From Bdellovibrionota bacterium (GTDB taxonomy: Bacteria; Bdellovibrionota; UBA1018; CAUJDS01), in the NCBI GenBank assembly GCA_963169695.1, contig CAUJDS010000076.1, forward strand, positions 14,452 to 46,451: a DNA stretch of 32,000 bases, written 5' to 3'. Both the position numbers and the translations under genes were made by a program. The notes beneath the pieces were generated by a model, which made no database searches, was not told where the DNA came from, and saw only the letters and a list, made by a program, of their open reading frames with translations. Positions 5,238 through 18,571 of this stretch are shown here, piece after piece. Within the stretch, counting starts at the first letter, position 1, and each line of letters begins with the position of its first letter.

Positions 5238-8174
5238 ATGAGCCGCTACTTAAAAAACTGTCTCACCGCCCTCCTTCTCAGCTTGGTTTTGAACGCTGGC
5301 AATGCAACGTCAGCCCACGCAGTTCCTTTTGACGAAGGATTCTACTCTTTTTGGGAAGAAGCACTTCCTCTGGATAAGATTCAATCCAAATACGGCATTG
5401 CTATATCTCGAGAAGCACTCGCCAAAGCCGGCTCCTCGATAGTCAAATTTCAGATCCCTTCACTACCGGGATACTCAACCGGTAGCTTTGTTTCTTCCCA
5501 AGGATTGATCATCACCCATTCTGCAATGGCTGAGCTTTGCCTGCAGGGGTATCAAGAAAAGCACGCGAACTTTAAAATTTCAGAAGAAGGTTTTTTTGCC
5601 AAGCACCTCACAGAAGAAGTTCCTTGCCCTGGCATGGTAGTGACTCGCGTGCACGCTGAATCCGATGTGACCAACGAGATCGAATCAACTTTCGAAATCT
5701 TTCGCAGCCTTATTTCTCGACCCATGTATGGTCCTCCCAATCCACATCCCACCTCTCCTTGGGATGACGATGTGGACTGGCAGGCTTTTCAATTCGACGA
5801 GCCGCAACTTCCACTGGACTCAGCTCAAAGTAATCCTGTCATTGGACCTCTGCTGCCCAAGGATGCCCCGAAAAAGGTATCCCCGCTCAGTGTGATGGTT
5901 TCTCACATCGGCATGGAGGACTATATTGACGTCCTTCTCTCGGATGAATACTCTGCCCTTCCAGAATCTGGATTGGATCCAGCGATGGCCGAAGACGTAA
6001 AAATACTCAAAGAAATGTCGGGTGCTTTGAAAAGTGGCCAATTTGATGTTGATCTCGAAGCTGAAGGAGCCTATCAGGCAGCTCTGTATAAGGACCAGGT
6101 AAAGAAGACACTGCTCGGCCAACCCAGCGCAGTAACTGCAATTCACAAGGCCTTTGAGTTAATTCTGAACTGCGAAGGAATCGAACCTTCCAAATGGAAT
6201 CCCACTCAGTATTGGGATGAATTCACGGCACAGACTGAGCACTGCCAGCTGAAACGATACAAAGACAGCATGGGAAATCGCAACTTTGCGATCGTTAAGT
6301 ACGACACGCTTCGTGATATCCGACTGGTCGCAGTACCGTCACCCGGAGCATTAGCATTGAGCAAAAAAGTACCACCAGGAACCGTGCCGGCTATTCGAAT
6401 GGATTTCTCTATTTTTCGAGCCTACGGAATGGAGAATGGCCTTCTACCGAACGTTCGAATGGGAGAAAGCCTTGGCACACTCAAAGAGGTGGCAACCCTT
6501 GGGTCCATCAACAGCGTCCTGACTCCAAATGAATCCAATCGACCCTTGAATTCCTCAGAGTTCTTTCTCCCTCCGCAGTTTGATTCCAAAATGGAGGAAG
6601 GAAATTTTTCGATGACCCTAGGGCATCCTATGGAATTTGATCGTCAAAAAAATTACTTTCAATTTAAAATTCTGGTGGAATCCAAAATTCCGGCCGCGCT
6701 AGGAAACGTAGAAGCCATGATTCCAAGCTTACGAGCCAAAGTCTATGAACTTGCAAGTGACCCGAGTCCTAAAGGTAAAAAGCTCTACCAGGAAGCGCTC
6801 GCTGCCTATCAAAGCAATTTGAAATTTCGCGATGCCTACCAAGCACTTGCCAAAGAACTCGTTCAACCGAATTATCTCGAACGCAGGAATGAACTCATTC
6901 AAGAAATTAAGTTAGCAGCTGAAAAGAACCCAGAAGATGCTCAGGCGAAGACTACCTTGGAACAAGTAAAAAAGGCTCAGGACCTCACCGAAGAGTATCA
7001 AAAGATTTATCCCTTCTACTTTCTTGTTTTTGAGTGGCTAAATAGCGGCGTGGTCCAACCCATCAATACCTTATTGGACGTTCAGGAACAAATTGCGGCT
7101 ATTTCCAACAAACTCAAATCTGACGAAGATCGAGATGAACTTCTGAGGACCATTCTCCCAAAATTTTCCAAAATAAAATCTGCCCTCTTGGGCATTCCCC
7201 TTGCGTCTTACAAACAGGTCATCAGTCAGAAACTTCTTAGCTCCATCCTCGTGATGGCCAGAAAGAAAGAAGTCCCCGTCTTTACCGAACACTTCAAGCC
7301 ACAGGAGGGTATTGAGGTAGTGGCTATTGCTCATGACTTGTTGAATGTGTACCCAATATTACAAATCGACACCTACCCCGATATAGAATTGATGTCTGAG
7401 AAATGGCAGCCAATTTCTCCAAAAGCCAAAGAGCTCGTTTCCTTGATCCGCCAGATCAGGAGAATTTTTACAGCTATTGACACTAAAATGAAGAAAATCG
7501 CAAAGGAGCTCGGGAGTCTCAGCGAGGAACTGCGAGTAGTTGATAGGTATGGAATTATTGAGACGTCGGTACCTAATCGATTGCCACGATTTAGTTATGG
7601 AACGATTCGTGGGACGGAATCCACCCCAGCAGTAATGAAGGCATCTTACCTCAAGGAGAATGCGATTGCCTTTGCTCCCCTCAAATCTGCAGAGAGGTCT
7701 CTCGCTAGAGACCTCATTGAAAAATTGGGAGAAACTCCTTACTTGTTTCAATCGGATGCCGATACGCTGACCGGTTTTGATTTTCCGGATCTTGGAATTG
7801 AGCACGAGTACTACTACCCTGGAGGTATGGCACTTGTGGATGAGCACTTCCGGTGGCATGGACTTCAAGTAGATACGAACAGTGAAGCAAGGGCCAATGT
7901 GTTTGAATATAGCGGTGATCAATCTGCGAGGGCTATTGTATTGAGTGCAAATGCAATCATGGGGTATTTGGACCTCAATGCAGACGCAAAAAGATTGAAG
8001 GAAGAACTAACTTATTCCACCAAGGGAAGAGGTTACTTTGAGTCTACAGAGAGTGGAAAATCTGAATGGTGCCTTTTGGAAACTCCTAAGATAACAGGTC
8101 AAGAGAATAAGAAAAATCAGAACTCCTCAGGGAAGAGCTCTGACTGCAGTACCGATTTAATCAAAATAAAGTAG
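5238..8174 (+). CDS. S46 (DPP7/DPP11)-family peptidase-like protein, possibly catalytically inactive
   Basis: Signal peptide; YSTGSFVSSQGLIITHSAMAELCLQGYQEKH...EGFFAKHLTEEVPCPGMVVTRV matches the S46 N-terminal pattern; FSMTLGHPMEFDR; ATG at 5238 follows an AGG-containing RBS (the track start at 5214 is a GTG). Confidence 0.65.
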   Translation: MSRYLKNCLTALLLSLVLNAGNATSAHAVPFDEGFYSFWEEALPLDKIQSKYGIAISREALAKAGSSIVKFQIPSLPGYSTGSFVSSQGLIITHSAMAELCLQGYQEKHANFKISEEGFFAKHLTEEVPCPGMVVTRVHAESDVTNEIESTFEIFRSLISRPMYGPPNPHPTSPWDDDVDWQAFQFDEPQLPLDSAQSNPVIGPLLPKDAPKKVSPLSVMVSHIGMEDYIDVLLSDEYSALPESGLDPAMAEDVKILKEMSGALKSGQFDVDLEAEGAYQAALYKDQVKKTLLGQPSAVTAIHKAFELILNCEGIEPSKWNPTQYWDEFTAQTEHCQLKRYKDSMGNRNFAIVKYDTLRDIRLVAVPSPGALALSKKVPPGTVPAIRMDFSIFRAYGMENGLLPNVRMGESLGTLKEVATLGSINSVLTPNESNRPLNSSEFFLPPQFDSKMEEGNFSMTLGHPMEFDRQKNYFQFKILVESKIPAALGNVEAMIPSLRAKVYELASDPSPKGKKLYQEALAAYQSNLKFRDAYQALAKELVQPNYLERRNELIQEIKLAAEKNPEDAQAKTTLEQVKKAQDLTEEYQKIYPFYFLVFEWLNSGVVQPINTLLDVQEQIAAISNKLKSDEDRDELLRTILPKFSKIKSALLGIPLASYKQVISQKLLSSILVMARKKEVPVFTEHFKPQEGIEVVAIAHDLLNVYPILQIDTYPDIELMSEKWQPISPKAKELVSLIRQIRRIFTAIDTKMKKIAKELGSLSEELRVVDRYGIIETSVPNRLPRFSYGTIRGTESTPAVMKASYLKENAIAFAPLKSAERSLARDLIEKLGETPYLFQSDADTLTGFDFPDLGIEHEYYYPGGMALVDEHFRWHGLQVDTNSEARANVFEYSGDQSARAIVLSANAIMGYLDLNADAKRLKEELTYSTKGRGYFESTESGKSEWCLLETPKITGQENKKNQNSSGKSSDCSTDLIKIK

Positions 8175-8274: not shown

Positions 8275-9102
8275 TTAGAGCAATTGCAACGCTTTATTAG
8301 GCGCTGAATTTGCTTGAGCTAGAACGGAGATTCCTGCGTGGCTCAGAATGTTCTCACGAGTGAGTTCTGAGGTTGCAAGAGCGATGTCCGTGTCTGCAAT
8401 TCGGCTGCGAGCTTGAGACTGCATTTCTTGAGAAATTCTCAAGTTATTGACCGATGATTGCAGCTTATTCTGCATGGCTCCAAGGTTAGCTCGACCGGCA
8501 TTGAGCCTGTCGAACGCCTTGTCCACTGATTCGAGCATCTCTCTAGCTGAATCCTTAGATTCGGTAGAGGCACCATTGATTCCCAATGTATCCGTGCTGA
8601 GATCGTTCTCGCTGACTTTGAATACGACGCGAGACTCTTCACCCGATCGGATACCAACTTGGAACTCAAGGTCCTTGCCGCCACTGCTAAGCAGAGGAGT
8701 ACCGTTGAATTCTGTAACTTTTGCTATGCGATCTACTTCATCCTTCAAAGACTGAACTTCTTTGTCGATGAAACCTCGCTCGGTGTCGCCAATGGTGTCC
8801 GAAGCAGCTTGAATCGCAAGTTCGCGCATACGAACGAGGATGTTGCTAGCTTCAAACATTCCACCTTCTGCTACTTGCACGAGAGAAATGCCGTCATTCG
8901 CATTTCTTTCTGCTTGAGCAGTGGATCGCAACTGAGCACGCATGTTTTCACTAATGGACAAGCCTGCGGCATCGTCACCAGCATTGATGATTCGATTTCC
9001 TGAGGCAATTCTTTGATATTGCTTCGATTGCTTTTCACCCGTAGACGCCAATTGTCTTTGAGTTGCCAGCGAAGCGGTATTGGTCGCTATTCTTAAGCCC
9101 AT
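8275..9102 (-). CDS. fliC: Flagellin
   Basis: MGLRIATNTASLATQRQL...QRIASGNRIINAGDDAAGLSISENMRAQLRS; NDGISLVQVAEGGMFEASNILVRMRELAIQAASDT; C-terminal SRIADTDIALATSELTRENIL. Confidence 0.97.
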   Translation of the reverse strand: MGLRIATNTASLATQRQLASTGEKQSKQYQRIASGNRIINAGDDAAGLSISENMRAQLRSTAQAERNANDGISLVQVAEGGMFEASNILVRMRELAIQAASDTIGDTERGFIDKEVQSLKDEVDRIAKVTEFNGTPLLSSGGKDLEFQVGIRSGEESRVVFKVSENDLSTDTLGINGASTESKDSAREMLESVDKAFDRLNAGRANLGAMQNKLQSSVNNLRISQEMQSQARSRIADTDIALATSELTRENILSHAGISVLAQANSAPNKALQLL

Positions 9103-9483: not shown

Positions 9484-10314
9484 TTAGATTAGCTTGAGAG
9501 CTAACTGACTATTGGCGTTCGCTTGACCGAGGACCGACGTACCAGCGTTAGCAAGAATGTTATTCTTGGTAAGCTCAGATACTTCAGACGCGATGTCGGC
9601 ATCATAGATGCGACTTCGGGCAGCGGACAAGTTTTCGTCATAGATCTTCAAGTTGTTGATGCTCGACTCTAATCGATTCTGAAGTGCACCCAGGTGAGCG
9701 CGGTTTTCAGAAAGTTTAGAGATCGACTTGTCGATCATGTCTAGGTTGTTTTGAGCAGACTCTTTCGTTAGTGCCGAGACATCGGAGAGTCCCAGTGACT
9801 CAAGTCCGGTCTGTGTCTCAGTCGTATTGTAGACGAAGCGGTCATGCTCTGGGTTGTTATGTGTACCCACTTGGATTTCAACAATACCACCTTCACCCGA
9901 AAGCAAGGCACGGCCGTTGAATTCCGTCGTCTTAGAGATACGATCCACTTCATTCTTCAACTGCTGAACCTCCTTGTCGACAAAGCCTCGCTCGGTGTCG
10001 CCAATCGTGTCAGAAGCAGCCTGAATAGAAAGCTCTCTGAAACGAATCAGAATATTTCCAACTTCGTTGAGGCCCCCTTCAGCTACTTGAACCATCGATA
10101 CGCCGTCTTGGGCGTTTCGAACGTCCTGACGAATCGAACGAACTTGCGCTCGCATTGTTTCAGAAATCGCCAAGCCAGCGGCATCGTCAGCAGCTCGAGT
10201 AATTCGAGCACCTGATGCCAATCGCTCTTGAGTACGACCAACTTGATTGTTGGTGTTACCAAGATGACGCTGCGCAGCAATTGACTGCGTATTTGTCGCA
10301 ATTCTCATTCCCAT
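9484..10314 (-). CDS. fliC: Flagellin (second paralogue)
   Basis: MGMRIATNTQSIAAQRHLGNTNNQVGRTQERLASGARITRAADDAAGLAISETMRAQVRS; C-terminal SRIYDADIASEVSELTKNNIL; start moved to the ATG at 10312-10314 because GGAG lies 5 nt upstream (track start 10320 is a GTG too close to the RBS). Confidence 0.97.
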   Translation of the reverse strand: MGMRIATNTQSIAAQRHLGNTNNQVGRTQERLASGARITRAADDAAGLAISETMRAQVRSIRQDVRNAQDGVSMVQVAEGGLNEVGNILIRFRELSIQAASDTIGDTERGFVDKEVQQLKNEVDRISKTTEFNGRALLSGEGGIVEIQVGTHNNPEHDRFVYNTTETQTGLESLGLSDVSALTKESAQNNLDMIDKSISKLSENRAHLGALQNRLESSINNLKIYDENLSAARSRIYDADIASEVSELTKNNILANAGTSVLGQANANSQLALKLI

Positions 10315-10421
10315 ACACACTCCTATAAAGAAGTATACATACCAAATTACTTTGGTATATTTACTATTTGTTTCGATAATTTACTGGATATGCTGTACCC
10401 AGAAAAACCATCTTGTTGACT

Positions 10422-10477: not shown

Positions 10478-11278
10478 CTAGAGATCAGAGAACTCGGGGT
10501 CAATTTCTAAGCCTGCTTCGACATCCCAGTTGGTATCGAATTCATCGACCGGATCCTGGGCCATTGCCGAGCCGGAAGTAGGACTAGGCGCTGCAACCCT
10601 AGCTGGAGCCACAGGGGTCGGCTCTGCCATTACTGGAACACGAAGCCCGTACTTCTCAAGCACTGACCCGGTCTGTTCAGCTGGCCGTCTCCAAATCGAA
10701 GAAGGATCTGGGCCCGTCTCAACTAGAAGCGCGGTCATATCAGGCGAAAGCGTTAGTGACTGGTAGAAAACTTGTTCACTCAATTTGCGATACTCGTGGA
10801 TCGCCCAACGAAGGTAACGAGTGTCTTGAAATTCCTTCTGAAATGCTCGAGCAGTAGGAATCAAGGTGCTAAACGCCGACAAAACCTGTTTCTGCTTTTC
10901 GAGTATAGATTCCGTTTTTTCTAGCGAGGTGTGCAACTGCCTAAGGCCATCATAAAAGCACCAGTGCGCCTTGACGGGTTCATCAGCCACCCACTCCAGG
11001 GCACCTCGATCTCTTTCGTCCCGACTGACGGTTTTCTCATTGAGTGTCTGGAGCACTTTCTCACACCCCTTCCAGACGTCCGGACTAGGGACGTCTGGGC
11101 CTAGGAATACCGCTTCCAGATCAGCCCACTCATACCCAGAAGGATGACGCACTCCGGCAATTTCCGGGACCACCGGAAGTGGCTCTAATGGCGGAACTTC
11201 CTTCGTAGTCGAGCAAGACGCTATGGTAAATCCAATGCTCATCATCAGGAACAATCTAGCAATTTCAGATAGATACAT
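10478..11278 (-). CDS. Putative lipoprotein of unknown function, likely flagellar/motility regulon
   Basis: MYLSEIARLFLMMSIGFTIASCSTTKEVPP: signal peptide plus lipobox; start assigned at 11278 because the sigma-28 -10 box ends just upstream of the annotated 11299 start. Confidence 0.65.
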   Translation of the reverse strand: MYLSEIARLFLMMSIGFTIASCSTTKEVPPLEPLPVVPEIAGVRHPSGYEWADLEAVFLGPDVPSPDVWKGCEKVLQTLNEKTVSRDERDRGALEWVADEPVKAHWCFYDGLRQLHTSLEKTESILEKQKQVLSAFSTLIPTARAFQKEFQDTRYLRWAIHEYRKLSEQVFYQSLTLSPDMTALLVETGPDPSSIWRRPAEQTGSVLEKYGLRVPVMAEPTPVAPARVAAPSPTSGSAMAQDPVDEFDTNWDVEAGLEIDPEFSDL

Positions 11279-11300
11279 TGTTCGTACCATTTCAGTCAAC

Positions 11301-11328
11301 TTATCGGCAAAACCTTGACGCAGATTGA
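11301..11328 (-). promoter_or_regulatory. Sigma-28-like promoter for the lipoprotein gene
   Basis: Perfect GCCGATAA -10 on the minus strand (plus TTATCGGC at 11301-11308) with TCAA 16 nt upstream. Confidence 0.65.
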
Positions 11329-11348
11329 GCTTAACTAGGTTGCGGGAC

Positions 11349-11375
11349 TCAAGCCCCCGGCCAAAAAGCCGAAAA
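11349..11375 (+). promoter_or_regulatory. Sigma-28-like promoter for the rotor/stator-like operon
   Basis: TCAA-N15-GCCGAAAA, same -35 tetramer and spacing as the first flagellin promoter; 36 nt upstream of the 11412 start. Confidence 0.55.
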
Positions 11376-11411
11376 GTCTAATGAGGACAAAAGGATAATG
11401 AAGGTGCCTCG

Positions 11412-12599
11412 ATGATGTTTTTCAAAATGAACGTCGCAAGCGGTGCGAAAATTTCTCTCTTTTTTGGGATGGCGGTATTCCTTTTGCACCTCTTTGCCTA
11501 CGCTGGCGACGACACAAGCCCCGCAATTAATCCTCCAGCGGAAGAACAACAACTTCCAAAATCCGAGGGAGCAAAATCGCAACTGAAAGCTCCAGCAACC
11601 AGTACTCACAGCAGAAATTTCTATCAAGTCCTGGAAGATGTACTTGGGGATTTTGAGTACGACCTCAACAATGGGCAAGTCCAAGGCCTAAAGGGGCTCG
11701 CGATACGCTCTATTGCCACCAGTGAAAACGTACCACCTTCATTCAAAGACCACATTGACCTCTTGATCAAAGAACGCGTTTTGAGTTCAACCAAGAACAA
11801 GATCATTAATTGCATTCAGTGTCGTTCTCAAAATGCCGTACTCAACGGAGACCAAGTTACCATCTCATCTCCGCAATCCAATCCTGCAGAGCTCAATCGG
11901 ATTGCCAAACAAATGGGCATCGATCACTTCATGGACGTCGCATTTGCCTACCAACCGAATGGCCTCATTTTATCGCTCAGTATTTCTGAAACGGACGGCA
12001 GTGATTCCGTGATTTGGTCACGAAGTTACAACTCTGAAACCTCGCGAGCGTCAGCATTTCGAAGAGGGGTTGACTACAACCAACTCGACGAAGCCAGAAA
12101 GAGCGTTGAGTACCAGCCGACCGTAGTGTATCGCCCAACGCTTTACTACCTCTTTGAGAACGATACGACGGGTTACGTGGGCACACTGGGCTTCGCTTTC
12201 CGAATGGTGGAACGCTATGACAACCGCAAAAAAGAAGTGGGATTTGAACTGAACTACCTCATGGACAGCGGATCTCTTGTCGGAAGCACGAGCACTTCTG
12301 ACTCTGTTTTTCGCAGCTTCAATATTACGCTCTTATTTGTTCATTCCTGGAATTTGATCGGTGACGTTGAATCTTACAATCAGGTGAGAGGCAGCGTCTT
12401 CACTGCAGTAGGAGGCACTTACGGATCAGGTTTCCTTGGAGCAGTTGTTCGTGGTGGATATGAGTGGCGCCTAGGCAAGCATTGGGCAGTGCAGGGTCTT
12501 TTGGGGTACCGTCCACAGGCTTCAAAATTTCTAAACGGGGTAGCATCTGGGTCCGTTTCTGGCTTTGAATTCGGAGTGGGGATCAGTGCACTGTACTAA
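11412..12599 (+). CDS. Predicted exported protein: N-terminal soluble domain (possibly CsgG/FlgO-like) plus C-terminal outer-membrane beta-barrel-like domain
   Basis: Signal peptide ...ISLFFGMAVFLLHLFAYA; alternating amphipathic glycine/aromatic segments in the C-terminal half ending in ...SGFEFGVGISALY. Confidence 0.6.
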   Translation: MMFFKMNVASGAKISLFFGMAVFLLHLFAYAGDDTSPAINPPAEEQQLPKSEGAKSQLKAPATSTHSRNFYQVLEDVLGDFEYDLNNGQVQGLKGLAIRSIATSENVPPSFKDHIDLLIKERVLSSTKNKIINCIQCRSQNAVLNGDQVTISSPQSNPAELNRIAKQMGIDHFMDVAFAYQPNGLILSLSISETDGSDSVIWSRSYNSETSRASAFRRGVDYNQLDEARKSVEYQPTVVYRPTLYYLFENDTTGYVGTLGFAFRMVERYDNRKKEVGFELNYLMDSGSLVGSTSTSDSVFRSFNITLLFVHSWNLIGDVESYNQVRGSVFTAVGGTYGSGFLGAVVRGGYEWRLGKHWAVQGLLGYRPQASKFLNGVASGSVSGFEFGVGISALY

Positions 12600-13299
12600 G
12601 AAGATCATACTCGCACTCAAGCTCTTCGGACTTTACGCACTTGGCGCCACAGCATGCTCGTCTATCCTAAGTTCATCCGATGATGGACAAGCTGGCGCAC
12701 CGATAGACAATCCTTTTGGAAATTTTTATGAGGAATCCAATAAATCCAATCAGGGCGTCATTTTGCGCTCCCGCAAAGGGGCTCAGACCGTCGAAGTAGA
12801 ACTCCCAAAAGAAGGCCACGACCGTACAAACTTTGTCATACCTATGACTGCCGGATCTTTTCAACCACCGGCCAACCAAACGGCTAGTGCCCAAAACTAT
12901 TCTCATTACCGCTCCGGCCTATCCGACCGAGAAATTGCCGGGACTTTTCCAAAAGGAAGCCCCGAGCAAGTCCAAAAACGTTCTGAAATGGAACGAGATT
13001 TGGGTCTTATTCCTTCTCAGAATGATTCTCCAACCAACGATCAAAGCTATTTGGGATCCATCGATCAAGTGAAGATTCTGTATCGTCAGGGCCGGTACGA
13101 GGCTGGCCTTATTGAAATTGACCAGATACTGCGCCGCTATCCAACGGATCCGAGACTGCACGAAATGCGTGGCACTCTTTTGGATCGAATGGGCCAAAAG
13201 GAACTGGCCCGACAAGCTTGGAATCAGTCCTTAGAACTTGAACCCAATAACGAAGGACTCAAGAGATTTCTCACTCGTAGAATTGCGAGCAAACCATGA
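12586..13299 (+). CDS. TPR-containing lipoprotein
   Basis: ALKLFGLYALGATACSS lipobox; TPR-like IKILYRQGRYEAGLIEIDQILRRYPTDPRLHEMRGTLLDRMGQKELARQAWNQSLELEPNN (first residues read DQVKILYRQ...); start assigned to a GTG preceded by GGGGA rather than the upstream ATG at 12565. Confidence 0.6.
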   Translation: MHCTKKIILALKLFGLYALGATACSSILSSSDDGQAGAPIDNPFGNFYEESNKSNQGVILRSRKGAQTVEVELPKEGHDRTNFVIPMTAGSFQPPANQTASAQNYSHYRSGLSDREIAGTFPKGSPEQVQKRSEMERDLGLIPSQNDSPTNDQSYLGSIDQVKILYRQGRYEAGLIEIDQILRRYPTDPRLHEMRGTLLDRMGQKELARQAWNQSLELEPNNEGLKRFLTRRIASKP

Positions 13300-15608
13300 A
13301 GATAAGAAATCTAGTTTCGCTTCTTGTGGCGTCCATGCTAATTTCTTCCACTTCATTCGCAACACCAGAAGCATCGCTTGAAGCACTCAATCTCAAGACC
13401 AATGACGAGGTTTTGAAAATCATAAAACCTCTCATGGATAAGTACTGCAAGGACAGCTGCCAGGTACTCAGCGCAAAGCCTGAAATTAAACTTCAAGACA
13501 CCGAAGAAACCGCACCCGGATTTGATGAAATCGCGCCACAGGAAGCCCTCAATTACAAGCCAGCCCTGGTGACTGTAGATGTTCTGGTAGATGAAATTGT
13601 AGGTCAAGTCACCCTTTCGCATCTTTTTGGTATCATACAAGAACACCTGAGCATACTTCCGTACCCTGTTATCTTGAATGAAAGGCGCAAGAAATTCCCG
13701 CAACCCTTGACGTCTGTTCAAAAAATGGCGGAACTGCGCAATAAAGTGGCCACGGACTTTCGGCAGAAAATTGAAGAGCTTTTTCGTGAATTCTGTCCGA
13801 AACAATGTATTCTGGCAGACCTAGATGTTTCATTGCAACAGCGCAATTTAGAAGAAGCCCAATACAACGCTAGCGGAGAATACATTACGGACGGAGATAC
13901 CTCTGCCAAGATCAATAAAATTTCCGGCCAAATTCTCTTCGATACGACCCTTACTCCGGATGAACAAACCGCCATCTTCGAAATGGCTCAACTCAAAACT
14001 AATTCCTACAAAAGCGTCAATCTTCAAGCAAAGAGCCGCTCTTTTCCCCATCCCGAACCCTATTCGGAAGATGGTTCGAATTTGGCATATGGTCGCATGG
14101 GCGGCAAGTACAGAGGATTGAGTTCGCAAGAGAGCAAGACTCAGAAGTCTGACTCAAAGAATTCTCAGCAGACGGATCGCAGGCTTTCTTCTTCGAGCAA
14201 TAACTCTCAGACGAATCAATCCAACAGTAAGACATCACAAGAATCCCAATTCAATAAAACTCAAAACGAAAGTGCCGAGAAATCCGAAAGTTATCAACGT
14301 ACTGAGCGAATTGAGCGAGTTGAAAGTGGCGACGCGGTTCAGGCCGAATTGAAGCGGCTTTCTGTATGGGGAGTCATCTTTGCGTGTTCAGTGCTTTCTC
14401 TTCTCATCTTTATAGCATTGGCCACCTATGCACCACGATCCAAGAAATCGAGCGAAAATTCACTTCTGCAGTGGATCCAAAAGTCGCCTAAAGGATCAAA
14501 AGAGCAGCTACCAGCCAAGACTGGGCCTAAGTCATCCAATGATTCCATTGCGCGTCGCTACGAAATTGACAACCTCATAGATGAATTGACTAGGATCTTT
14601 GCAGAACATCCCAAGGTTGCCAAGCACGCCTTCACTAGAGTTCTCACGGAAGAAGGAGTCGAAATCACAGCCGCCTATATATCAATCTTGGGCGAAAGCA
14701 TCGTACTTGATCTCCTCAAGGATCCCAGCCTGCAGAATGACGTCAATGAACTCACCGAATACTACGCTAAGAACACGCTGGAATTGAAAGACGAAGATAA
14801 ACTCGAGCTGCTCAAGAAGCTTCACAATCGTGCAATTGCATCTAAGCTTCAAGTGATTGGCAATCGCTCTTCTAACGCATTTGATTTCTTAGTGGAGATG
14901 GACGGCCTTCAAATTCTTGAAATGATTCAGAATGAATCCCTTACAGTAAAGGCAATCGTACTAACTCAATGTGATACGCAAAAGCGAGCTATTATCTACT
15001 CACACTGGGACGACGACGCTCGCGCCAAGATTCTAAAAGAATTATCTCGAATTGATCACCTTCCTCGAAATTATATTTATAACGTTTCTAATGCTCTACG
15101 TCGAAAGCGGCAAGACAATCCTCGCCTCAATACCGAGGCCCTTCCTGGTTCCGAAGTACTGGTGGGCCTATTAGAAAAGTCTTCCTTTGGGCAGCAACAA
15201 CAAGTCGTGATGGACCTAGAACAGAACAATCCTGAGAGTGCACGCGTACTCAAGAGCAAACTTGTTAGCATCGACACGCTACGCTACCTCCGCGACTCCC
15301 AGTTGCTCGAAGTCGTGCTCAGTCTCAAACACGAGGAGCTGCTTGCATTCCTCAAGGGCGCACCAGACCATATTCGCAAAACCATATTTGACAAGTCACC
15401 CAAAGATTTGGCCGAGGAAATTCAGGATGAGTTGACCATGGTCAGTCCGCTCAACCGCGACACCTACCAGGTAGTGGAACGTAAGATTCTCAATCGGGTA
15501 CGCCTCATGGCAAACGACGGACTCATCAATCTCATTGAAACCAACGAACGCATGTTTGCCGAAAGTCCCGCCAACCATGCCGGAGCTAGGAGGGCCGCAG
15601 GATGGTAG
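13296..15608 (+). CDS. Membrane-anchored FliG-like protein: signal peptide, periplasmic region, S/N/Q-rich linker, one TM helix, cytoplasmic FliG middle- and C-terminal-like domains (FliF-FliG-fusion-like architecture)
   Basis: 770 aa; TM helix about residues 356-377; FliG_M-like FDFLVEMDGLQILEMIQNESLTVKAIVLTQCDTQKRAIIYSHWDDDARAKILKELSRI; FliG_C-like LKSKLVSIDTLRYLRDSQLLEVVLSLKHEELLAFLKGAPDHIRKTIFDKSPKDLAEEIQDELTMVSPLNRDTYQVVERKILNRVRLMANDGLI. Confidence 0.75.
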   Translation: MKIRNLVSLLVASMLISSTSFATPEASLEALNLKTNDEVLKIIKPLMDKYCKDSCQVLSAKPEIKLQDTEETAPGFDEIAPQEALNYKPALVTVDVLVDEIVGQVTLSHLFGIIQEHLSILPYPVILNERRKKFPQPLTSVQKMAELRNKVATDFRQKIEELFREFCPKQCILADLDVSLQQRNLEEAQYNASGEYITDGDTSAKINKISGQILFDTTLTPDEQTAIFEMAQLKTNSYKSVNLQAKSRSFPHPEPYSEDGSNLAYGRMGGKYRGLSSQESKTQKSDSKNSQQTDRRLSSSSNNSQTNQSNSKTSQESQFNKTQNESAEKSESYQRTERIERVESGDAVQAELKRLSVWGVIFACSVLSLLIFIALATYAPRSKKSSENSLLQWIQKSPKGSKEQLPAKTGPKSSNDSIARRYEIDNLIDELTRIFAEHPKVAKHAFTRVLTEEGVEITAAYISILGESIVLDLLKDPSLQNDVNELTEYYAKNTLELKDEDKLELLKKLHNRAIASKLQVIGNRSSNAFDFLVEMDGLQILEMIQNESLTVKAIVLTQCDTQKRAIIYSHWDDDARAKILKELSRIDHLPRNYIYNVSNALRRKRQDNPRLNTEALPGSEVLVGLLEKSSFGQQQQVVMDLEQNNPESARVLKSKLVSIDTLRYLRDSQLLEVVLSLKHEELLAFLKGAPDHIRKTIFDKSPKDLAEEIQDELTMVSPLNRDTYQVVERKILNRVRLMANDGLINLIETNERMFAESPANHAGARRAAGW

Positions 15609-16120
15609 GCACTTCAGAAGGAAAACCAACCTTAGAGATCCTGAAAAATATTCAGCTCTTTAAGGTTTTTACTGATTCGGAACTTCAACAGCTCCTTGCC
15701 ATGGGACAATCTGAATCGCACCAATCGTATTCTAATATTGTGATCGAGGGAGAGCTATCCTGGAGCCTCTATCTCATTCTCCAAGGCACCGTCGGCATCT
15801 TCAAGACTAATCCGCTTAGCGAGAACTCTTATGATATTGGCCAACTCAAAGAGGGAAGCTTCTTTGGCGAAATGTCTCTGGTCGATGAGAATGGCCGCTC
15901 AGCGACTGTAAGAGCACTAACCGATTGCGTTGTGTTTGTCATATCCAAGGAAGCATTTTCTACTTTTCTCAATAGCTCCACTGAACGACGTACTCGATTT
16001 TACGAAAAATGCATCAAGACTCTGGTCGATCGACTCCGAGAACTGAACGATGGATATGTGATCAGTCAGTATCAACTCTGGAAATCGGCGCTAAAAAAAG
16101 ATTCCGAGGAGGCCGCCTAA
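15602..16120 (+). CDS. Cyclic nucleotide-binding (Crp-like cNMP) domain protein without an evident DNA-binding domain
   Basis: ILKNIQLFKVFTDSELQQLLAMG...IVIEGELSWSLYLILQGTVGIFKT...IGQLKEGSFFGEMSLVDENGRSATVRALTDCVVFVISKEAF; 172 aa. Confidence 0.88.
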   Translation: MVGTSEGKPTLEILKNIQLFKVFTDSELQQLLAMGQSESHQSYSNIVIEGELSWSLYLILQGTVGIFKTNPLSENSYDIGQLKEGSFFGEMSLVDENGRSATVRALTDCVVFVISKEAFSTFLNSSTERRTRFYEKCIKTLVDRLRELNDGYVISQYQLWKSALKKDSEEAA

Positions 16121-16903
16121 ATGAACCTTTCATCATTCTTCGGTGTTTTGCTAGGAATTGGAATTGTCGTTGCAGCGATTCATGAAAGTGGAATGCAGGC
16201 TGCATTCTTTCTAAATTTTCATGGTGTGGTGATTGTCGTAGGTGGAACACTTGCAGCGGCAAGTATTAGTTTTCCACTCTCAAAAGTTCTATCTCTTCTA
16301 AGGGTATTTTTTCAACGGGTTCTAGGAAGGAATAAAATCGACTACCAATCGATCATTACCCAACTACTTGAGGCGAATCGAAAGTTCAACCTCGGTCAAG
16401 GGTCGGTAGCTGAGTTGACTGCTGGAATACAACACAGCTTCCTTAAGGAAGCGATTGAGCTTGCAGCAACAGGTGTCCTGACTCAAAAAGAAGTGAGGCA
16501 AGTCCTTGAGCAGCGTGTAAAAACTATGGAAAATCGCTATATGTACGAAGCCAATATGTTTCGTATCCTAGGGCGATTTCCTCCAGCGTTTGGACTGCTC
16601 GCCACAACCCTAGGAATGATAGCGCTACTACAAAATCTTGGTCAGCCTGGCGCAGAAAAGCTCATCGGACCAGCCATGTCTATAGGACTCGTCGGTACCC
16701 TCTATGGAATAGCACTAGCCAACCTCGTTTTTCTGCCCATCGCAGAGAATCTCACTGTGAGAACCAAGGAAGAAATGGAATTGCGTCGGATGATCATAGA
16801 GGGAGCTGTCTTACTTAAGGCGCAAGTGAACCCGATGTCTATGCGAGAGAGCCTCAATTCCTTCCTTGCACCAGGAGAGCGCGTACTGAGAAGGGCTGCG
16901 TAG
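16121..16903 (+). CDS. motA: MotA/PomA-like stator protein
   Basis: 260 aa; LLGIGIVVAAI..., FHGVVIVVGGTLAAASISFPLSKV; FRILGRFPPAFGLLATTLGMIALLQNL...AMSIGLVGTLYGIALANLVFLPIAENL, with prolines in TM3/TM4 positions. Confidence 0.9.
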   Translation: MNLSSFFGVLLGIGIVVAAIHESGMQAAFFLNFHGVVIVVGGTLAAASISFPLSKVLSLLRVFFQRVLGRNKIDYQSIITQLLEANRKFNLGQGSVAELTAGIQHSFLKEAIELAATGVLTQKEVRQVLEQRVKTMENRYMYEANMFRILGRFPPAFGLLATTLGMIALLQNLGQPGAEKLIGPAMSIGLVGTLYGIALANLVFLPIAENLTVRTKEEMELRRMIIEGAVLLKAQVNPMSMRESLNSFLAPGERVLRRAA

Positions 16904-16911
16904 GAACACCT

Positions 16912-17739
16912 ATGGCACTTTCATTCTTAAAAAAGAAGAATCCGGAATCGGATTCGTCGGAGAAACTGCCTGACCAGCCTCATGATTCTTATCAATCAGA
17001 AGGAGATGAATCCAATTGGCTGGTGTCCTACGCGGATATGATGACGCTACTCTGTGCTTTTTTCATCATGATGTTTAGTATGTCGACCCTGCAGACGCCA
17101 AAGTTCGAGAAGGCCAGGGAAGAGGTTTCAAAGCACTTTGGAGGCGGCTATGACAAGCCCAACGCCCAACTTTCTAAGGTGGTGCAAGATTCAATTGCTT
17201 CGGCCCAATTGGGTAAGGAAGTCACAGTAAGATCGAATCCGGCAGGTGTTTCTATAAGCTTTGAATCCACGCTCTTCTTTGACAGCCTAGGCGCGGCTGT
17301 CAAATCAGATGGCCAGAAAGTTCTCACAGAACTTGCTCGATCAGTCTTGAGATACGCCAAAGACCATCAAATGAAATACAAAATTGTAGTGGAAGGGCAT
17401 ACAGACGCTCAGCCCATCTTAAGCGGCACCTTTCTATCAAATTGGGAACTATCTGGCGCTCGAGCCTCTCGAGTGGTCGACATTTTCTTGGCCCAAGGAT
17501 TTCAACCCGCTGACTTCATGCCAGTAGGGTACGGATCGACCCGACCTCGTGAGCCAAGCCGAGATTCAAACGGAAACTGGATTCCAGAAAATCTTGCCAA
17601 AAATAGGCGTGTGGTCCTGCGCATCCTAGATTCACAAGAAAACTCCATCCCTTGGAATATGGACTTGGACCTAGCTATTGATCCGCCACCCGAATCGGCA
17701 AAGTCTGCCGCCATTGCGCTTCCACCCCCTTCTCACTGA
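16912..17739 (+). CDS. motB: MotB-like stator protein with OmpA-type peptidoglycan-binding domain
   Basis: NWLVSYADMMTLLCAFFIMMFSMST (candidate ion-binding Asp at 17035-17037); YKIVVEGHTDAQP...NWELSGARASRVVDIFL...VGYGSTRPREP...NLAKNRRVVLRI. Confidence 0.93.
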   Translation: MALSFLKKKNPESDSSEKLPDQPHDSYQSEGDESNWLVSYADMMTLLCAFFIMMFSMSTLQTPKFEKAREEVSKHFGGGYDKPNAQLSKVVQDSIASAQLGKEVTVRSNPAGVSISFESTLFFDSLGAAVKSDGQKVLTELARSVLRYAKDHQMKYKIVVEGHTDAQPILSGTFLSNWELSGARASRVVDIFLAQGFQPADFMPVGYGSTRPREPSRDSNGNWIPENLAKNRRVVLRILDSQENSIPWNMDLDLAIDPPPESAKSAAIALPPPSH

Positions 17740-17764
17740 TCCTAGTGAGAAGAGGTCCTGCCGG

Positions 17765-18571
17765 ATGCGATGGAGTTGTCCGCATTGTAAAGTAAGTCAA
17801 AGTATTCCTGACGAACGAGTAGAGGGGGGCTGGTCTTTTGCTCGATGCTACAAGTGCAACGGATATTCTCTCGTGCGCAAGTCTGACGTCAAAACATTTA
17901 AAGTTGCACAACCACCCGAACAAGCCACCGTTCTCAATTCCCATCCCAGCGAAGTACCTCTCATGAGCCGAGAGGCTACTAACCATTTGCAATTGACACT
18001 GAAGAATGCGGCCATTCGATCCGAAAATTTTCAAGAACTGGCAAAGTCTCTTCAGAACCAAGAAGTGAATCAGACTAATGAGGGGCCAAAAAAAGCTATA
18101 AGCGAACGTATGCTTCCCTATGCCATTGGTCTTGCTGGAGCCCTCGCGCTCTTTTCCGGCGCCTACCTATTTATGGAGGGACAGTCTCTTTGGAATAAAG
18201 CACACCATGCAAGCCGAGAAGCCGATCCCATTCCAGTAGAACCTAGCATTGCAGCACCGATCAAAGATGAACTGAAAGAAGCAGCAATGGCCCCTGTTCG
18301 AGAGCCCGTACAGGAATCGGCTCAAGTACCGGAGACCGTCTTCAAACCGGAAGTCATTTATCGCTCTATCGTCATTAAGCCTCTTGCGGACCGCGTAAAT
18401 CTGCGGACTGAGCCAAACGTGCAGGCGGGTATATCCGGTACGGCGACACGTTCGGATCGCTTTACGGTACATCAATGGAAGAGCGACTGGTTTGAGGTTT
18501 CAAACGTGAAATTTCCGGATAAAAAATACTGGATCCGAAACGACTTCGTATCTGTAGCCGAAAATGAATAA
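17765..18571 (+). CDS. Zinc-ribbon (MJ0042-like) protein with TM helix and C-terminal SH3b-like domain
   Basis: MRWSCPHCKVSQSIPDERVEGGWSFARCYKCNGYSLVRK; MLPYAIGLAGALALFSGAYLFM TM; VIKPLADRVNLRTEPNVQAGISGTATRSDRFTVHQWKSDWFEVSN SH3b-like; start assigned to the ATG at 17765. Confidence 0.7.
   Translation: MRWSCPHCKVSQSIPDERVEGGWSFARCYKCNGYSLVRKSDVKTFKVAQPPEQATVLNSHPSEVPLMSREATNHLQLTLKNAAIRSENFQELAKSLQNQEVNQTNEGPKKAISERMLPYAIGLAGALALFSGAYLFMEGQSLWNKAHHASREADPIPVEPSIAAPIKDELKEAAMAPVREPVQESAQVPETVFKPEVIYRSIVIKPLADRVNLRTEPNVQAGISGTATRSDRFTVHQWKSDWFEVSNVKFPDKKYWIRNDFVSVAENE

What the first reader, a model, noticed from the sequence alone, without database searches (positions are those of the whole stretch)
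11349..18571. Candidate undescribed rotary/force-generating machine: membrane-anchored FliG-like rotor, MotA/MotB-like stator, cNMP-sensor protein, TPR lipoprotein and outer-membrane barrel in one tight operon
Seven same-strand genes are joined by overlaps or near-zero gaps (12599/12586, 13299/13296, 15608/15602, 16120/16121, 16903/16912, 17739/17765), so they are probably co-transcribed and translationally coupled. The set spans the whole envelope: outer-membrane barrel-like protein, periplasmic lipoprotein, inner-membrane protein carrying a cytoplasmic FliG-like region, MotA-like channel and peptidoglycan-binding MotB-like protein. FliG is the flagellar protein on which MotA acts, so a FliG-like domain encoded next to a dedicated MotAB pair implies a torque-generating pair. 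No rod, hook, FliM/FliN or export gene is present in the operon, so it may be a non-flagellar motor (gliding, envelope remodelling, prey entry/exit) or an accessory switch and stator set for the flagellum.
Basis: partly seen in the sequence, partly recalled or inferred. Interest (0 to 1): 0.9.

Follow-up and report, generated by a model that had tools for sequence, protein, structure and literature searches.

The report
FliF/FliG-like fusion protein with own stator
An uncultured class of predatory-type bacteria carries a conserved operon in which one membrane protein combines the ring-building and torque-receiving parts of the flagellar rotor and sits next to its own flagellar-type stator, an outer-membrane module and a cyclic-nucleotide sensor, which looks like an undescribed rotor-stator device separate from the normal flagellar genes.

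Summary
Seven same-strand, overlapping or abutting genes (11412-18571) encode:
- an 8-stranded outer-membrane barrel with a periplasmic LpoB/TolB-N-like domain;
- a TPR lipoprotein;
- a 770-aa membrane protein;
- a cNMP-binding protein;
- a flagellar-type MotA;
- a MotB with plug, channel Asp and OmpA domain;
- a Zn-ribbon/TM protein.

New here: the periplasmic half of the 770-aa protein folds as two ring-building motifs whose best PDB matches are the FliF MS-ring. Its cytoplasmic half is FliG (part of N, then M and C). It is therefore a natural single-chain FliF/FliG-like protein. It keeps a conserved charged torque helix, and MotA keeps the complementary charges. It has lost the FliM-binding EHPQR motif and the MFxF switch hinge.

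The order g1-g2-g3-(g4)-MotA-MotB holds in about 60 species-level genomes, which include named members of GTDB class UBA1018. A related genome has a complete canonical fliF/fliG/fliM/fliN cluster and at least five MotA genes, so this is not "the" flagellar set. A FliA-type promoter precedes the operon in 40 of 50 loci.

More distant relatives keep the protein and the cNMP partner but have no adjacent MotAB. My literature searches found no description. Whether it is an independent axle-less motor, an add-on to the flagellar motor or a stator brake is unresolved.

The parts
11349..11375 (+). FliA (sigma-28)-type promoter motif TCAAG-N15-CCGAAAA, 37 nt upstream of the g1 ATG
   Evidence: Sequence read. 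The pattern T[ACT]AAG-N14-16-CCGA occurs upstream of g1 in 40 of 50 loci, against 2.9% in background. It also occurs in 31 of 61 flagellin upstream regions. The B. bacteriovorus FliA consensus is TTAAG-N16-CCGATA (PMC3627812).
11412..12599 (+). g1: outer-membrane protein with a signal peptide, a periplasmic alpha/beta domain (residues ~70-207, with conserved C134/C137) and a C-terminal 8-stranded beta-barrel (residues ~237-393)
   Evidence: AF2 model, pLDDT 79. Foldseek matches the OmpA TM domain, NspA, OmpX and OmpW (probability 1.0) and the LpoB C-terminal / TolB N-terminal fold. The C-terminal residue is Phe in 54 of 60 homologues. No Pfam, NCBIfam or PDB sequence match.
12586..13299 (+). 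g2: lipoprotein with two C-terminal TPR motifs
   Evidence: TPR_2 1.5e-7, TPR_14 3e-6. The lipobox Cys is conserved in the family. Gene call of 237 aa.
13296..15608 (+). g3: 770-aa single-pass membrane protein, a FliF-like/FliG-like fusion
13365..14039 (+). g3 periplasmic tandem ring-building motifs (residues ~24-132 and ~138-248). Each is alpha-beta-beta-alpha-beta with a conserved CxxxC.
   Evidence: AF2 pLDDT 86 with topology H-E-E-H-E repeated twice. The top three Foldseek PDB hits are the Salmonella FliF MS-ring, E 1.7e-7 to 3.7e-6. C51/C55 and C167/C171 are conserved.
14058..14300 (+). g3 Ser/Gln/Asn-rich low-complexity linker (residues ~255-335)
   Evidence: Composition S20 Q10 N8 in 81 residues. 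The sequence is variable across the family.
14286..14438 (+). g3 conserved periplasmic juxtamembrane motif (E331-L352) and transmembrane helix (residues 352-381)
   Evidence: Invariant residues E337, I339-E343, G345-A347, E351 and L352. Hydropathy peak of 2.64.
14646..15557 (+). g3 cytoplasmic FliG-like region (residues ~451-754: part of FliG_N, then FliG_M and FliG_C), with the torque helix at residues 700-713 (15393-15434)
   Evidence: Pfam FliG_M and FliG_C. PDB FliG structures at 1e-9. hhalign probability 99.8, E 1e-27 against soluble FliG-like proteins. Motif and charge conservation.
15602..16120 (+). g4: stand-alone cyclic-nucleotide-binding protein with an intact phosphate-binding cassette (FGEMSL...RSATV)
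   Evidence: cNMP_binding 7.7e-18. Cassette residues are conserved in 62 sequences. Absent from a divergent subgroup of nine loci.
16121..16903 (+). g5: flagellar-type MotA/PomA-like stator A subunit
   Evidence: MotA_ExbB 4e-19. NCBIfam MotP, PomA and MotA at 1e-39 to 1e-41, all below the equivalog cut-offs. PDB 6ysf/8ucs 7e-32 and PomA 2e-29. K/R87 and E/D98 conserved.
16912..17739 (+). g6: MotB-like stator B subunit with plug, channel Asp (SYADMMTLL) and an OmpA-like peptidoglycan-binding domain
   Evidence: MotB_plug 2e-16 and OmpA 2e-12. PDB MotB 6ysl 3e-19. The Asp is invariant in 64 sequences.
17765..18571 (+). g7: Zn-ribbon, TM and SH3-like protein. A usual but not obligatory operon member.
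   Evidence: Weak Zn_ribbon_4 and SH3_3 matches. Conserved CxxC...CxxC. Found in 48 loci, sometimes displaced.
10478..11278 (-). Divergently transcribed conserved lipoprotein gene (266 aa), possibly part of the system
   Evidence: Immediately upstream in 53 loci. Conserved lipobox Cys. Has its own conserved motif ending in TTTGCCGA on the minus strand in about 30 loci. No family match.

Best explanation
The operon encodes a self-contained rotor-stator unit built from flagellar parts but separate from the flagellar basal body.

**Proposed mechanism**
- g3 is exported by its signal peptide, and its two FliF-like ring-building domains oligomerise in the periplasm. They are probably disulphide-stabilised.
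- Its single transmembrane helix places a ring of FliG-like domains under the inner membrane.
- The co-translated MotA5B2-type stator (g5/g6) anchors to peptidoglycan through its OmpA domain and opens its plug.
- Driven by ion flow through the conserved Asp, the stator pushes on the charged torque helix of g3 through the K/R87 and E/D98 surface of MotA.
- g3 lacks the FliM-binding motif and the MFxF hinge, so the device has no switch complex and is probably unidirectional.
- The periplasmic ring is tethered by long flexible linkers. It is proposed to contact the outer-membrane module: the g2 TPR lipoprotein, the g1 barrel with its LpoB/TolB-N-like domain, and perhaps the divergent lipoprotein.
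- g4 gates the interaction in response to cAMP or cGMP.
- The operon is transcribed from a FliA-type promoter together with the motile or attack-phase programme.

**Shown:** the folds and domains, residue conservation, synteny, the promoter motif, and a canonical flagellar gene set elsewhere in a genome of the same class.

**Inferred:** ring formation, the g3-MotA contact, rotation, the link to the outer-membrane proteins, cNMP gating, and the physiological output.
For: - g3 unites the two rotor functions in one chain. Its tandem RBM fold best matches the FliF MS-ring, and it carries FliG_M and FliG_C with part of FliG_N.
- The torque-helix charges in g3 and the partner charges in MotA are conserved across about 70 sequences.
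- The EHPQR motif is replaced by an invariant E-S-x-T-V-K, and MFxF by L-V-S-[ILV]. This argues against membership of the FliM/FliN switch complex.
- The stator is complete and of flagellar type: plug, Asp and OmpA domain. It is translationally coupled to g3/g4.
- g1-g2-g3-MotA-MotB is present in 55/55 and 59/60 loci with enough flank, from 73 species.
- A static FliG-like partner on a turning MotA pentamer would jam it. Under the established rotating-MotA model, g3 must therefore either turn or act as a brake (inference).
- A canonical FliF, FliG (with EHPQT and MFVF), FliM and FliN cluster and at least five MotA genes exist in FG-1, which belongs to the same class.
- There is a natural precedent for a fusion of two RBMs, a TM and a FliG-like region in a non-flagellate, the Chlamydiaceae FliF (PMC4768692). 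Engineered FliF-FliG fusions form rings (listing).
Against: - All characterised stators of this clade act on flagella.
- The promoter is of the same FliA type as the neighbouring flagellin genes, and the operon lies beside fliD, fliS and flagellin genes.
- Second-tier relatives of g3 (24-27% identical to g3) keep the torque-helix charges and the cNMP partner, but they have no adjacent MotAB, barrel or TPR gene. A dedicated stator is therefore not universal in the family.
- The ~80-residue disordered linker between the RBMs and the TM helix cannot transmit torque rigidly.
- No output structure (axle, adhesin or track) is identified.
- FliF similarity is seen only at the fold level, with TM-scores of about 0.3 because domain orientations differ. 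Pfam YscJ_FliF is not detected.
- Ring formation and the g3-MotA contact were not modelled.
Confidence: 0.4

Rival explanations
1. Add-on to the flagellar motor. g1, g2, the divergent lipoprotein and g3 would build extra periplasmic and inner-membrane rings around the polar, sheathed, high-torque flagellar motor of this class. g5/g6 would be one of several flagellar stator sets that these rings recruit or position, with g4 tuning recruitment.
For: - The operon has a FliA-type promoter like the flagellins and lies next to flagellin, fliD and fliS genes.
- The stator is flagellar-type.
- Complex motors use TPR proteins, lipoproteins and outer-membrane proteins to scaffold stators. The review read covers PflA, MotC/MotK, FlcB and the E-ring. 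MotX/Y and FlgO/P/T are examples from my own knowledge.
- FG cells of this class have one thick polar flagellum.
- FG-1 has at least five MotA genes, as expected for multi-stator motors.
- Second-tier relatives lack a dedicated MotAB, so g3-like proteins may use the flagellar stators.
Against: - A fixed FliG-like ring touching MotA would oppose MotA rotation (inference from the rotating-pentamer model).
- No known accessory ring carries a cytoplasmic FliG_C torque helix.
- In B. bacteriovorus, FliA controls two thirds of attack-phase genes, including non-flagellar ones, so the promoter is not specific to flagella.
- Synteny with flagellins is matched by synteny with unrelated housekeeping genes, so it may be inherited order only.
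- Second-tier relatives sit next to pilMNOPQ, not flagellar genes.
Confidence: 0.3
2. Stator brake, decoy or parking dock. g3 would be an envelope-anchored FliG mimic that captures MotA units through the normal torque interface. This would stall or sequester stators under cNMP control, for example to stop swimming on prey contact.
For: - The MotA-facing charges are conserved while the switch-complex motifs are lost.
- Pairing with a cNMP-binding protein is the deepest conserved association.
- Second-tier relatives lack their own stator, which fits action on stators encoded elsewhere.
- Anchoring through the RBM ring and outer-membrane proteins would resist torque.
- The FliA-type promoter fits expression in the motile phase.
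Against: - A brake does not need its own translationally coupled MotAB, yet the pair is present in 59 of 60 first-tier loci.
- Known brakes and clutches are small soluble proteins (YcgR, MotI, EpsE; my own knowledge).
- The subgroup lacking g4 still keeps g3 and MotAB.
- The flexible linker is a poor mechanical anchor.
Confidence: 0.15
3. Non-rotary energiser. MotAB would work like ExbBD or TolQR, using ion flow to drive conformational work that passes through g3 and its periplasmic domains to the outer-membrane barrel and lipoproteins, for envelope remodelling or transport. The FliG-like domain would serve only as the docking and activating site.
For: - The gene set spans the whole envelope: outer-membrane barrel, lipoproteins, an inner-membrane protein and a peptidoglycan-bound stator.
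- The g1 periplasmic domain has the LpoB/TolB-N fold, which is used in envelope protein-protein contacts.
Against: - The stator belongs to the flagellar clade with a plug, not the Exb/Tol clade.
- A FliG torque helix has no known role outside rotation.
- No TonB-like or TolA-like transducer is present in the operon.
Confidence: 0.1
4. It is simply the organism's ordinary flagellar fliG and motAB.
For: JGI auto-annotation names g3 relatives 'flagellar motor switch protein FliG'.
Against: - g3 is 770 aa with a signal peptide, a periplasmic domain and a TM helix.
- It scores 63.7 bits against the fliG equivalog cut-off of 226.7.
- It lacks the EHPQR and MFxF motifs.
- It has only two RBMs, with no RBM3 or collar to house an export gate.
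- FG-1 has a separate canonical FliF/FliG/FliM/FliN cluster.
Confidence: 0.02

Closest known systems
Chlamydiaceae 'FliF', a natural FliF-FliG fusion (Bergeron 2016, PeerJ, PMC4768692)
   Same: It has the same layout: an N-terminal signal or TM segment, two periplasmic ring-building motifs, one TM helix and a cytoplasmic FliG-like region. It also lacks RBM3 and the collar, and it is not part of a complete flagellum.
   Different: The chlamydial protein is about 330 aa and carries only a FliG_M-like region, with no torque helix and no MotAB. It is proposed to work with the injectisome. g3 is 770 aa with FliG_M and FliG_C and a conserved charged torque helix. It also has a long low-complexity linker, a dedicated stator, outer-membrane partners and a cNMP sensor. 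Sequence relatedness between the two was not tested here.
Flagellar MS-ring/C-ring top (FliF + FliG) with the MotAB/PomAB stator, and engineered FliF-FliG fusions of Salmonella and Vibrio
   Same: It shares RBM-type periplasmic domains, FliG_M and FliG_C homology, the charge pairs of the torque interface, and a stator with plug, Asp and OmpA domain. Engineered fusions show that one chain can form MS-ring-like rings (papers listed; PDB 8z4d appears).
   Different: - No RBM3, beta-collar or export gate.
- No FliM or FliN binding motif and no MFxF hinge.
- Below every curated equivalog cut-off.
- The Pfam FliF model is not matched.
- An ~80-residue disordered linker is present.
- The operon has no axial or export genes.
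Periplasmic stator scaffolds of complex flagellar motors (PflA/PflB, FlgP/FlgQ, MotX/MotY, FlgT/O/P, E-ring FlgY/FlbB/MotE with the TPR partners MotC/MotK/FlcB)
   Same: TPR proteins, lipoproteins and outer-membrane proteins are encoded with or act on stators. ARM/MgtE_N/FliG-like folds occur in an accessory ring.
   Different: The ARM-like domains of the E-ring are periplasmic, whereas the FliG-like part of g3 is cytoplasmic and carries a torque helix. No sequence match of g1, g2 or g3 to any of these families was found in Pfam or NCBIfam.
Spirochaete FliG paralogues (373-406 aa 'FliG' of Spirochaetia MAGs, possibly FliG1-like)
   Same: They are the nearest soluble relatives of the g3 cytoplasmic region (hhalign E 1e-27). 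They share the E-S-x-x-V motif in place of EHPQ.
   Different: They are soluble, with a full FliG_N domain, and have no RBM or TM. That they are FliG1 orthologues is my inference and was not tested.
Other 5:2 motor systems (ExbBD-TonB, TolQR, AglRQS-Glt gliding, GldLM, ZorAB)
   Same: They follow the same concept: an ion-driven MotAB-family motor coupled to envelope-spanning partners, including TPR proteins and outer-membrane barrels.
   Different: g5/g6 belong to the flagellar stator group rather than the generic group described in PMC12505986. There is no ZorA hit in PADLOC. None of those systems uses a FliG-like partner.

Membership tests
FliG (flagellar rotor/switch protein; TIGR00207, K02410) | FliG_M and FliG_C domains | tested here: met
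   PF14841 5.9e-8 and PF01706 8.3e-15. PDB FliG structures at 1e-9.
FliG (flagellar rotor/switch protein; TIGR00207, K02410) | Whole-protein score above the curated equivalog cut-off; a soluble protein of about 330 aa | tested here: not met
   63.7 bits against a cut-off of 226.7. The protein is 770 aa with a signal-like segment and one TM helix.
FliG (flagellar rotor/switch protein; TIGR00207, K02410) | FliG_N domain that binds the FliF C-terminus | tested here: inconclusive
   Pfam FliG_N is not detected. hhalign aligns g3 residues 451-512 with part of the N-terminal region of soluble FliG-like proteins.
FliG (flagellar rotor/switch protein; TIGR00207, K02410) | EHPQR motif (FliM binding) and MFxF hinge (switching) | tested here: not met
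   The aligned positions are an invariant E547-S-x-T-V-K and L656-V-S-[ILV] in 74 sequences. The canonical FG-1 FliG has EHPQT and MFVF.
FliG (flagellar rotor/switch protein; TIGR00207, K02410) | Charged torque helix (E. coli R281, D288, D289) | tested here: met
   The acidic pair E/D711-E712 is conserved. The R281 position is D/E704, with conserved K700 and K/R703 beside it. The match is therefore partial at the Arg position.
FliF / MS-ring protein (PF01514 YscJ_FliF) | Periplasmic ring-building motifs (alpha-beta-beta-alpha-beta) between two hydrophobic segments | tested here: met
   The AF2 model has two such motifs. The best PDB matches are FliF 7bk0, 6scn and 8t8p, E 1.7e-7 to 3.7e-6. Hydrophobic segments lie at the N-terminus and at residues 352-381.
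FliF / MS-ring protein (PF01514 YscJ_FliF) | Sequence match to the FliF family model; RBM3 and beta-collar | tested here: not met
   No YscJ_FliF or YscJ_FliF_C hit at E<=0.1. Only two RBMs are present. A distant relative, P0268, does hit YscJ_FliF_C.
FliF / MS-ring protein (PF01514 YscJ_FliF) | Assembles into a ring | not testable with these tools
   No multimer prediction is available.
Flagellar stator MotAB/PomAB/MotPS | MotA fold with conserved cytoplasmic charged pair; MotB plug, channel Asp and OmpA-like domain | tested here: met
Flagellar stator MotAB/PomAB/MotPS | Score above the curated equivalog cut-offs | tested here: not met
   Best MotA-family score is 140 bits against 394 (MotP). 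Best MotB-family score is 142 against 283 (MotD).
Flagellar stator MotAB/PomAB/MotPS | Drives the flagellar rotor | not testable with these tools
   Needs genetics or imaging.
Zorya anti-phage system | ZorA with a long tail, plus ZorC/D or ZorE | tested here: not met
   PADLOC gives no ZorA hit for g5 and no hits for g1, g2, g3 or g7. g6 gives only generic MotB/ZorB similarity.
Flagellar periplasmic scaffold proteins (PflA/B, FlgP/Q, MotX/Y, FlgT/O/P, MotC/K) | Sequence or fold homology of g1 or g2 to these families | tested here: inconclusive
   No Pfam or NCBIfam match beyond generic TPR. The g1 N-terminal domain has the LpoB/TolB-N-type fold. From memory, that fold is also reported for the FlgT middle domain; this was not tested.

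The most novel reading that the evidence does not exclude
A stand-alone, axle-less rotary or rack-and-pinion motor. A ring or chain of the FliF/FliG-like protein would be driven by its own flagellar-type stator and coupled through flexible periplasmic tethers to an outer-membrane barrel and lipoprotein module. It would power a non-swimming function such as surface movement, prey entry or envelope work in an uncultured class of predatory-type bacteria. It might also preserve a primitive rotor-stator state relevant to how the flagellar motor arose.
Probability: 0.3. Interest if true: 0.95.

Novelty: new variant of a known kind. Interest (0 to 1): 0.75.

Why it matters
Flagellar-type stators and FliG are known only as parts of the flagellum. 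Here a conserved operon pairs a complete stator with a single protein that carries both the ring-building (FliF-like) and torque-receiving (FliG-like) parts of the rotor. That protein lacks the switch-binding motifs, and the operon holds no export or axial genes.

If the pair works alone, it would be the first non-flagellar use of the flagellar torque interface. It would also be a minimal model for rotor-stator coupling and for the origin of the motor.

If it instead decorates or brakes the flagellar motor, it would be a new kind of accessory: a cytoplasmic FliG-like outer ring, or a decoy under cyclic-nucleotide control.

Either way it gives testable handles in a lineage whose magnetotactic members can be magnetically enriched for imaging (GTDB class UBA1018).

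Tried and rejected
**Searches that found nothing**
- A near-identity DNA search of the operon against plasmids found no match.
- The sigma-70 promoter and terminator consensus scan over the operon gave counts at chance level.
- Rfam and tRNA scans of the window were empty.
- A PDB sequence-profile search with g1 found nothing.
- About 1.2 Mb of related loci held no canonical FliG.

**Tools or look-ups that were unavailable**
I redid it with database homologues.
- The look-up of the last window gene failed because no product matched exactly.

**Dead ends**
- Walking outwards from fliS showed no further core flagellar genes.
- One literature search was wasted because 'second FliG' matched 'second flight'.
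- I could not locate the g3 orthologue in the KO tables of FG-1 and FG-2. The weak K02410 hits there (FG-1 04250, FG-2 00640) lie near ExbBD-TonB with no MotA or MotB KO hit nearby, so they do not look like g3. g3 probably scores below the KO threshold.

**Hypotheses rejected**
- Zorya is rejected.
- An Agl/Glt-type or Tol/Exb-type motor is rejected, because g5/g6 are flagellar-type with a plug.
- E-ring FlgY-like membership is rejected, because the FliG-like part of g3 is cytoplasmic.

Full report
**1. The observation**

The seven + strand ORFs are real and joined as described.

| Gene | Coordinates | Junction with previous gene |
|---|---|---|
| g1 | 11412-12599 | - |
| g2 | 12586-13299 | 14-nt overlap |
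| g3 | 13296-15608 | ATGA overlap |
| g4 | 15602-16120 | 7-nt overlap |
| g5 | 16121-16903 | no gap |
| g6 | 16912-17739 | 8-nt gap |
| g7 | 17765-18571 | 25-nt gap |

The same gene calls (394, 237, 770, 172, 260, 275 and 268 aa) were made independently on identical contigs assembled from three sequencing runs. Shine-Dalgarno-like sequences precede g4 and g5.

Every other ORF of the window was scanned. The only flagellar genes are fliS, fliD and two flagellins, upstream on the opposite strand. No rod, hook, FliM/FliN or export gene is present.

**2. What each product is**

- **g5** is a flagellar-type stator A subunit. Its best solved relatives are Clostridium MotA (7e-32) and Vibrio PomA (2e-29). 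NCBIfam ranks MotP, PomA and MotA at 1e-39 to 1e-41, all below the equivalog cut-offs.
- **g6** has the MotB plug, the channel Asp in an invariant SYADMMTLL, and an OmpA-like domain.
- **g4** is a bare cyclic-nucleotide-binding domain with an intact phosphate-binding cassette.
- **g2** is a lipoprotein with two TPR motifs.
- **g1** had no family match. An AlphaFold model from 39 homologues (pLDDT 79) shows a signal peptide, an alpha/beta domain and eight long strands. Foldseek matches the barrel to the OmpA TM domain, NspA, OmpX and OmpW, and the N-terminal domain to LpoB-C/TolB-N. Fifty-four of 60 homologues end in Phe, as outer-membrane proteins do.
- **g7** has a Zn-ribbon, one TM helix and a weak SH3-like tail.

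**3. The central protein, g3**

*Layout.* It has a signal-like N-terminus, about 330 periplasmic residues, one TM helix (residues 352-381) followed by basic residues, and about 390 cytoplasmic residues.

*Cytoplasmic half.* This part is homologous to FliG.
- Pfam finds FliG_M and FliG_C.
- A family profile hits four FliG crystal structures at about 1e-9.
- Profile-profile alignment with soluble FliG-like proteins gives probability 99.8 and E 1e-27 over residues 451-754, reaching into FliG_N.

*Periplasmic half.* This part was unknown. An AlphaFold model of residues 20-265 (pLDDT 86) shows two tandem alpha-beta-beta-alpha-beta units. Its three best PDB matches are the Salmonella FliF MS-ring (E 1.7e-7 to 3.7e-6, probability 1.0), with T3SS ring proteins lower in the list. 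TM-scores are low (~0.3) because the relative domain orientation differs, and no FliF sequence model is matched. The claim is therefore a FliF-like ring-building fold, not FliF membership.

*Other features.* Each unit carries a conserved CxxxC. Between the second unit and the membrane lie an ~80-residue Ser/Gln/Asn-rich linker and a highly conserved juxtamembrane motif.

**4. Interface residues**

In 74 family members the torque helix is conserved and charged: K700, P702, K/R703, D/E704, E/D708, E710, E/D711 and E712. The acidic pair aligns with E. coli D288/D289. In 67 MotA sequences, position 87 is always K or R and position 98 is E or D in 66. These align with the R90/E98-type pair.

The FliM-binding EHPQR motif is replaced by an invariant E-S-x-T-V-K. 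The MFxF switch hinge is replaced by L-V-S-[ILV]. g3 therefore looks competent to meet MotA but not to join a FliM/FliN switch.

**5. Conservation and distribution**

- More than 120 full-length relatives (45-58% identical) exist, all from uncultured Bdellovibrionota-type bins.
- Seventy-three species-level genomes carry a relative.
- Where flanks suffice, g1 and g2 are present in 55 of 55 loci, and MotA and MotB in 59 of 60. Gaps are short.
- g4 is missing from a divergent subgroup of nine loci.
- One short contig, L007, lacks g4-g6.
- The loci include UBA1018 itself and strain FG-2.
- FG-1 and FG-2 are magnetotactic vibrioid cells of GTDB class UBA1018, proposed name Bdellonasia. They have one thick polar flagellum and a pointed opposite pole (PMC13200544).
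- No cultured organism appeared among the named relatives.

**6. Is this the only fliG and motAB?**

The KO table of FG-1, whose genome holds a g1 homologue, lists a complete canonical cluster: FlgB, FlgC, FliE, FliF, FliG through FliR, FlhB, FlhA, FlhF and FliA. Its FliG has EHPQT and MFVF. The table also lists at least five MotA genes.

Together with the architecture of g3, this rejects the reading that it is "just the normal set". The link is indirect, because I could not place the g3 orthologue in those tables.

**7. Regulation**

A motif TCAAG-N15-CCGAAAA lies at 11349-11375.
- The same pattern precedes g1 in 40 of 50 loci, against 2.9% background.
- It precedes half of the flagellin genes.
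- A perfect TTAAG-N15-CCGATAG precedes a second-tier g3 relative.
- It matches the B. bacteriovorus FliA consensus. In that species, however, FliA drives two thirds of the attack-phase programme, including non-flagellar genes (PMC3627812).

This places the operon in the motile or attack-phase regulon without tying it to the flagellum.

**8. More distant relatives**

An exhaustive profile search found 103 clusters below 1e-30. A second tier includes Silvanigrellales bins. Two members with DNA in hand are 24% and 27% identical to g3.

In four second-tier contexts the order is YkuD, a DsbA-like protein, the g3-like gene and, in three of the four, a cNMP-binding gene. A PALP/CBS gene follows on the other strand, and then pilMNOPQ. 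No MotAB, barrel or TPR gene is adjacent, yet the torque-helix charges persist.

The dedicated stator is therefore specific to the first tier. The g3-cNMP pairing goes deeper. The DsbA-like neighbour fits the conserved periplasmic cysteines.

Other architectures also exist: TM plus FliG proteins of about 600-670 aa, one of which has a FliF C-terminal Pfam hit.

**9. Interpretation**

Under the established model in which the MotA pentamer turns around MotB, a FliG-like partner that meets MotA must either be moved or block it. A passive scaffold reading is therefore hard to hold.

I rank the explanations as follows.

| Explanation | Confidence |
|---|---|
| Self-contained, switchless rotor-stator unit | 0.40 |
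| Add-on ring or stator set of the flagellar motor | 0.30 |
| cNMP-controlled stator brake or decoy | 0.15 |
| Non-rotary energiser | 0.10 |

**10. Known relatives and novelty**

The closest described thing is the chlamydial FliF. It has a signal sequence, two RBMs, a TM helix and a FliG_M-like tail, in a non-flagellate (PMC4768692). It lacks FliG_C and any stator.

Engineered FliF-FliG fusions form rings. Complex flagellar motors use TPR proteins, lipoproteins and outer-membrane proteins, and even periplasmic ARM/FliG-like rings, to hold stators.

Five literature searches found no description of this operon or protein. Databases call the protein "FliG", "FliG C-terminal domain-containing" or "hypothetical".

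I rate it a new variant of a known kind, of high interest.

Noticed in passing
window 10478-11278 (-) and 11300-11335 (-): A divergently transcribed lipoprotein gene of 266 aa, with a conserved lipobox Cys and no family match, sits immediately upstream of g1 in 53 related loci. It has its own conserved upstream motif (CTCAkG-N~16-TTTGCCGAk) on the minus strand. It may be an eighth component.
   Followed up: partly
window 14286-14351 (g3 residues 331-352): An almost invariant periplasmic juxtamembrane segment (ERxEKIERVENGDAVQAEL) lies just before the TM helix of g3. It is better conserved than the ring-building domains. It might contact the MotB plug or linker, but I have no explanation for it.
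   Followed up: no
Related loci L075 and L074, plus the contigs of P0280 and P0285: Second-tier relatives of g3 lie in a different conserved context: YkuD, a DsbA-like protein, the g3-like gene, a cNMP-binding gene (absent in L074), then a PALP gene on the other strand (with a CBS domain except in L074), then pilMNOPQ. They have a FliA-type promoter but no adjacent MotAB.
   Followed up: partly
Supplementary KO tables of PMC13200544 (FG-1 gene 04250, FG-2 gene 00640): Both magnetotactic UBA1018 genomes have a further weak FliG (K02410) hit of about 110 bits, a few genes from an ExbB-ExbD(-TonB) set. This does not look like g3. Database proteins of 600-670 aa with a TM helix plus FliG_M/C (P0249, P0251, P0268, the last with a FliF C-terminal hit) may be the same kind.
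   Followed up: partly
Proteins P0257 and P0266 (Spirochaetia MAGs): The nearest soluble relatives of the g3 cytoplasmic region are spirochaete 'FliG' proteins of 373-406 aa. They share E-S-x-x-V in place of EHPQ and are possibly the FliG1-type paralogue.
   Followed up: partly
Locus L007 (5.6-kb contig): In this one relative, g3 is followed directly by a g7-like gene, with no g4, MotA or MotB. This could be a real deletion or an assembly artefact.
   Followed up: no
window 8275-9102 (-), 9484-10320 (-), 5214-8174 (+): Both flagellin genes have recognisable FliA-type promoters (TCAAGTAT-N11-GCCGATCA and TAAAGTTT-N11-ACCGAAAT). A 986-aa S46-type peptidase gene is wedged between the fliD and flagellin genes.
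   Followed up: partly
window 11349-11684 (-): This 111-aa antisense ORF overlaps the g1 start and is almost certainly spurious. Its edge explains the start coordinate given in the finding.
   Followed up: yes
FG-1 KO table, genes ~02078-02087 and 02687-02696: An adenylate cyclase lies a few genes from one MotB-MotA pair, and three MotA genes cluster within ten genes. This is of possible interest given the cNMP sensor, but I could not tie either to the operon.
   Followed up: no
window 15602-16120 (g4): The PADLOC hits of g4 are to the cyclic-nucleotide-binding parts of Pycsar effector models (1.7e-13). This reflects the shared sensor domain only, since no effector or cyclase domain is present.
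   Followed up: yes
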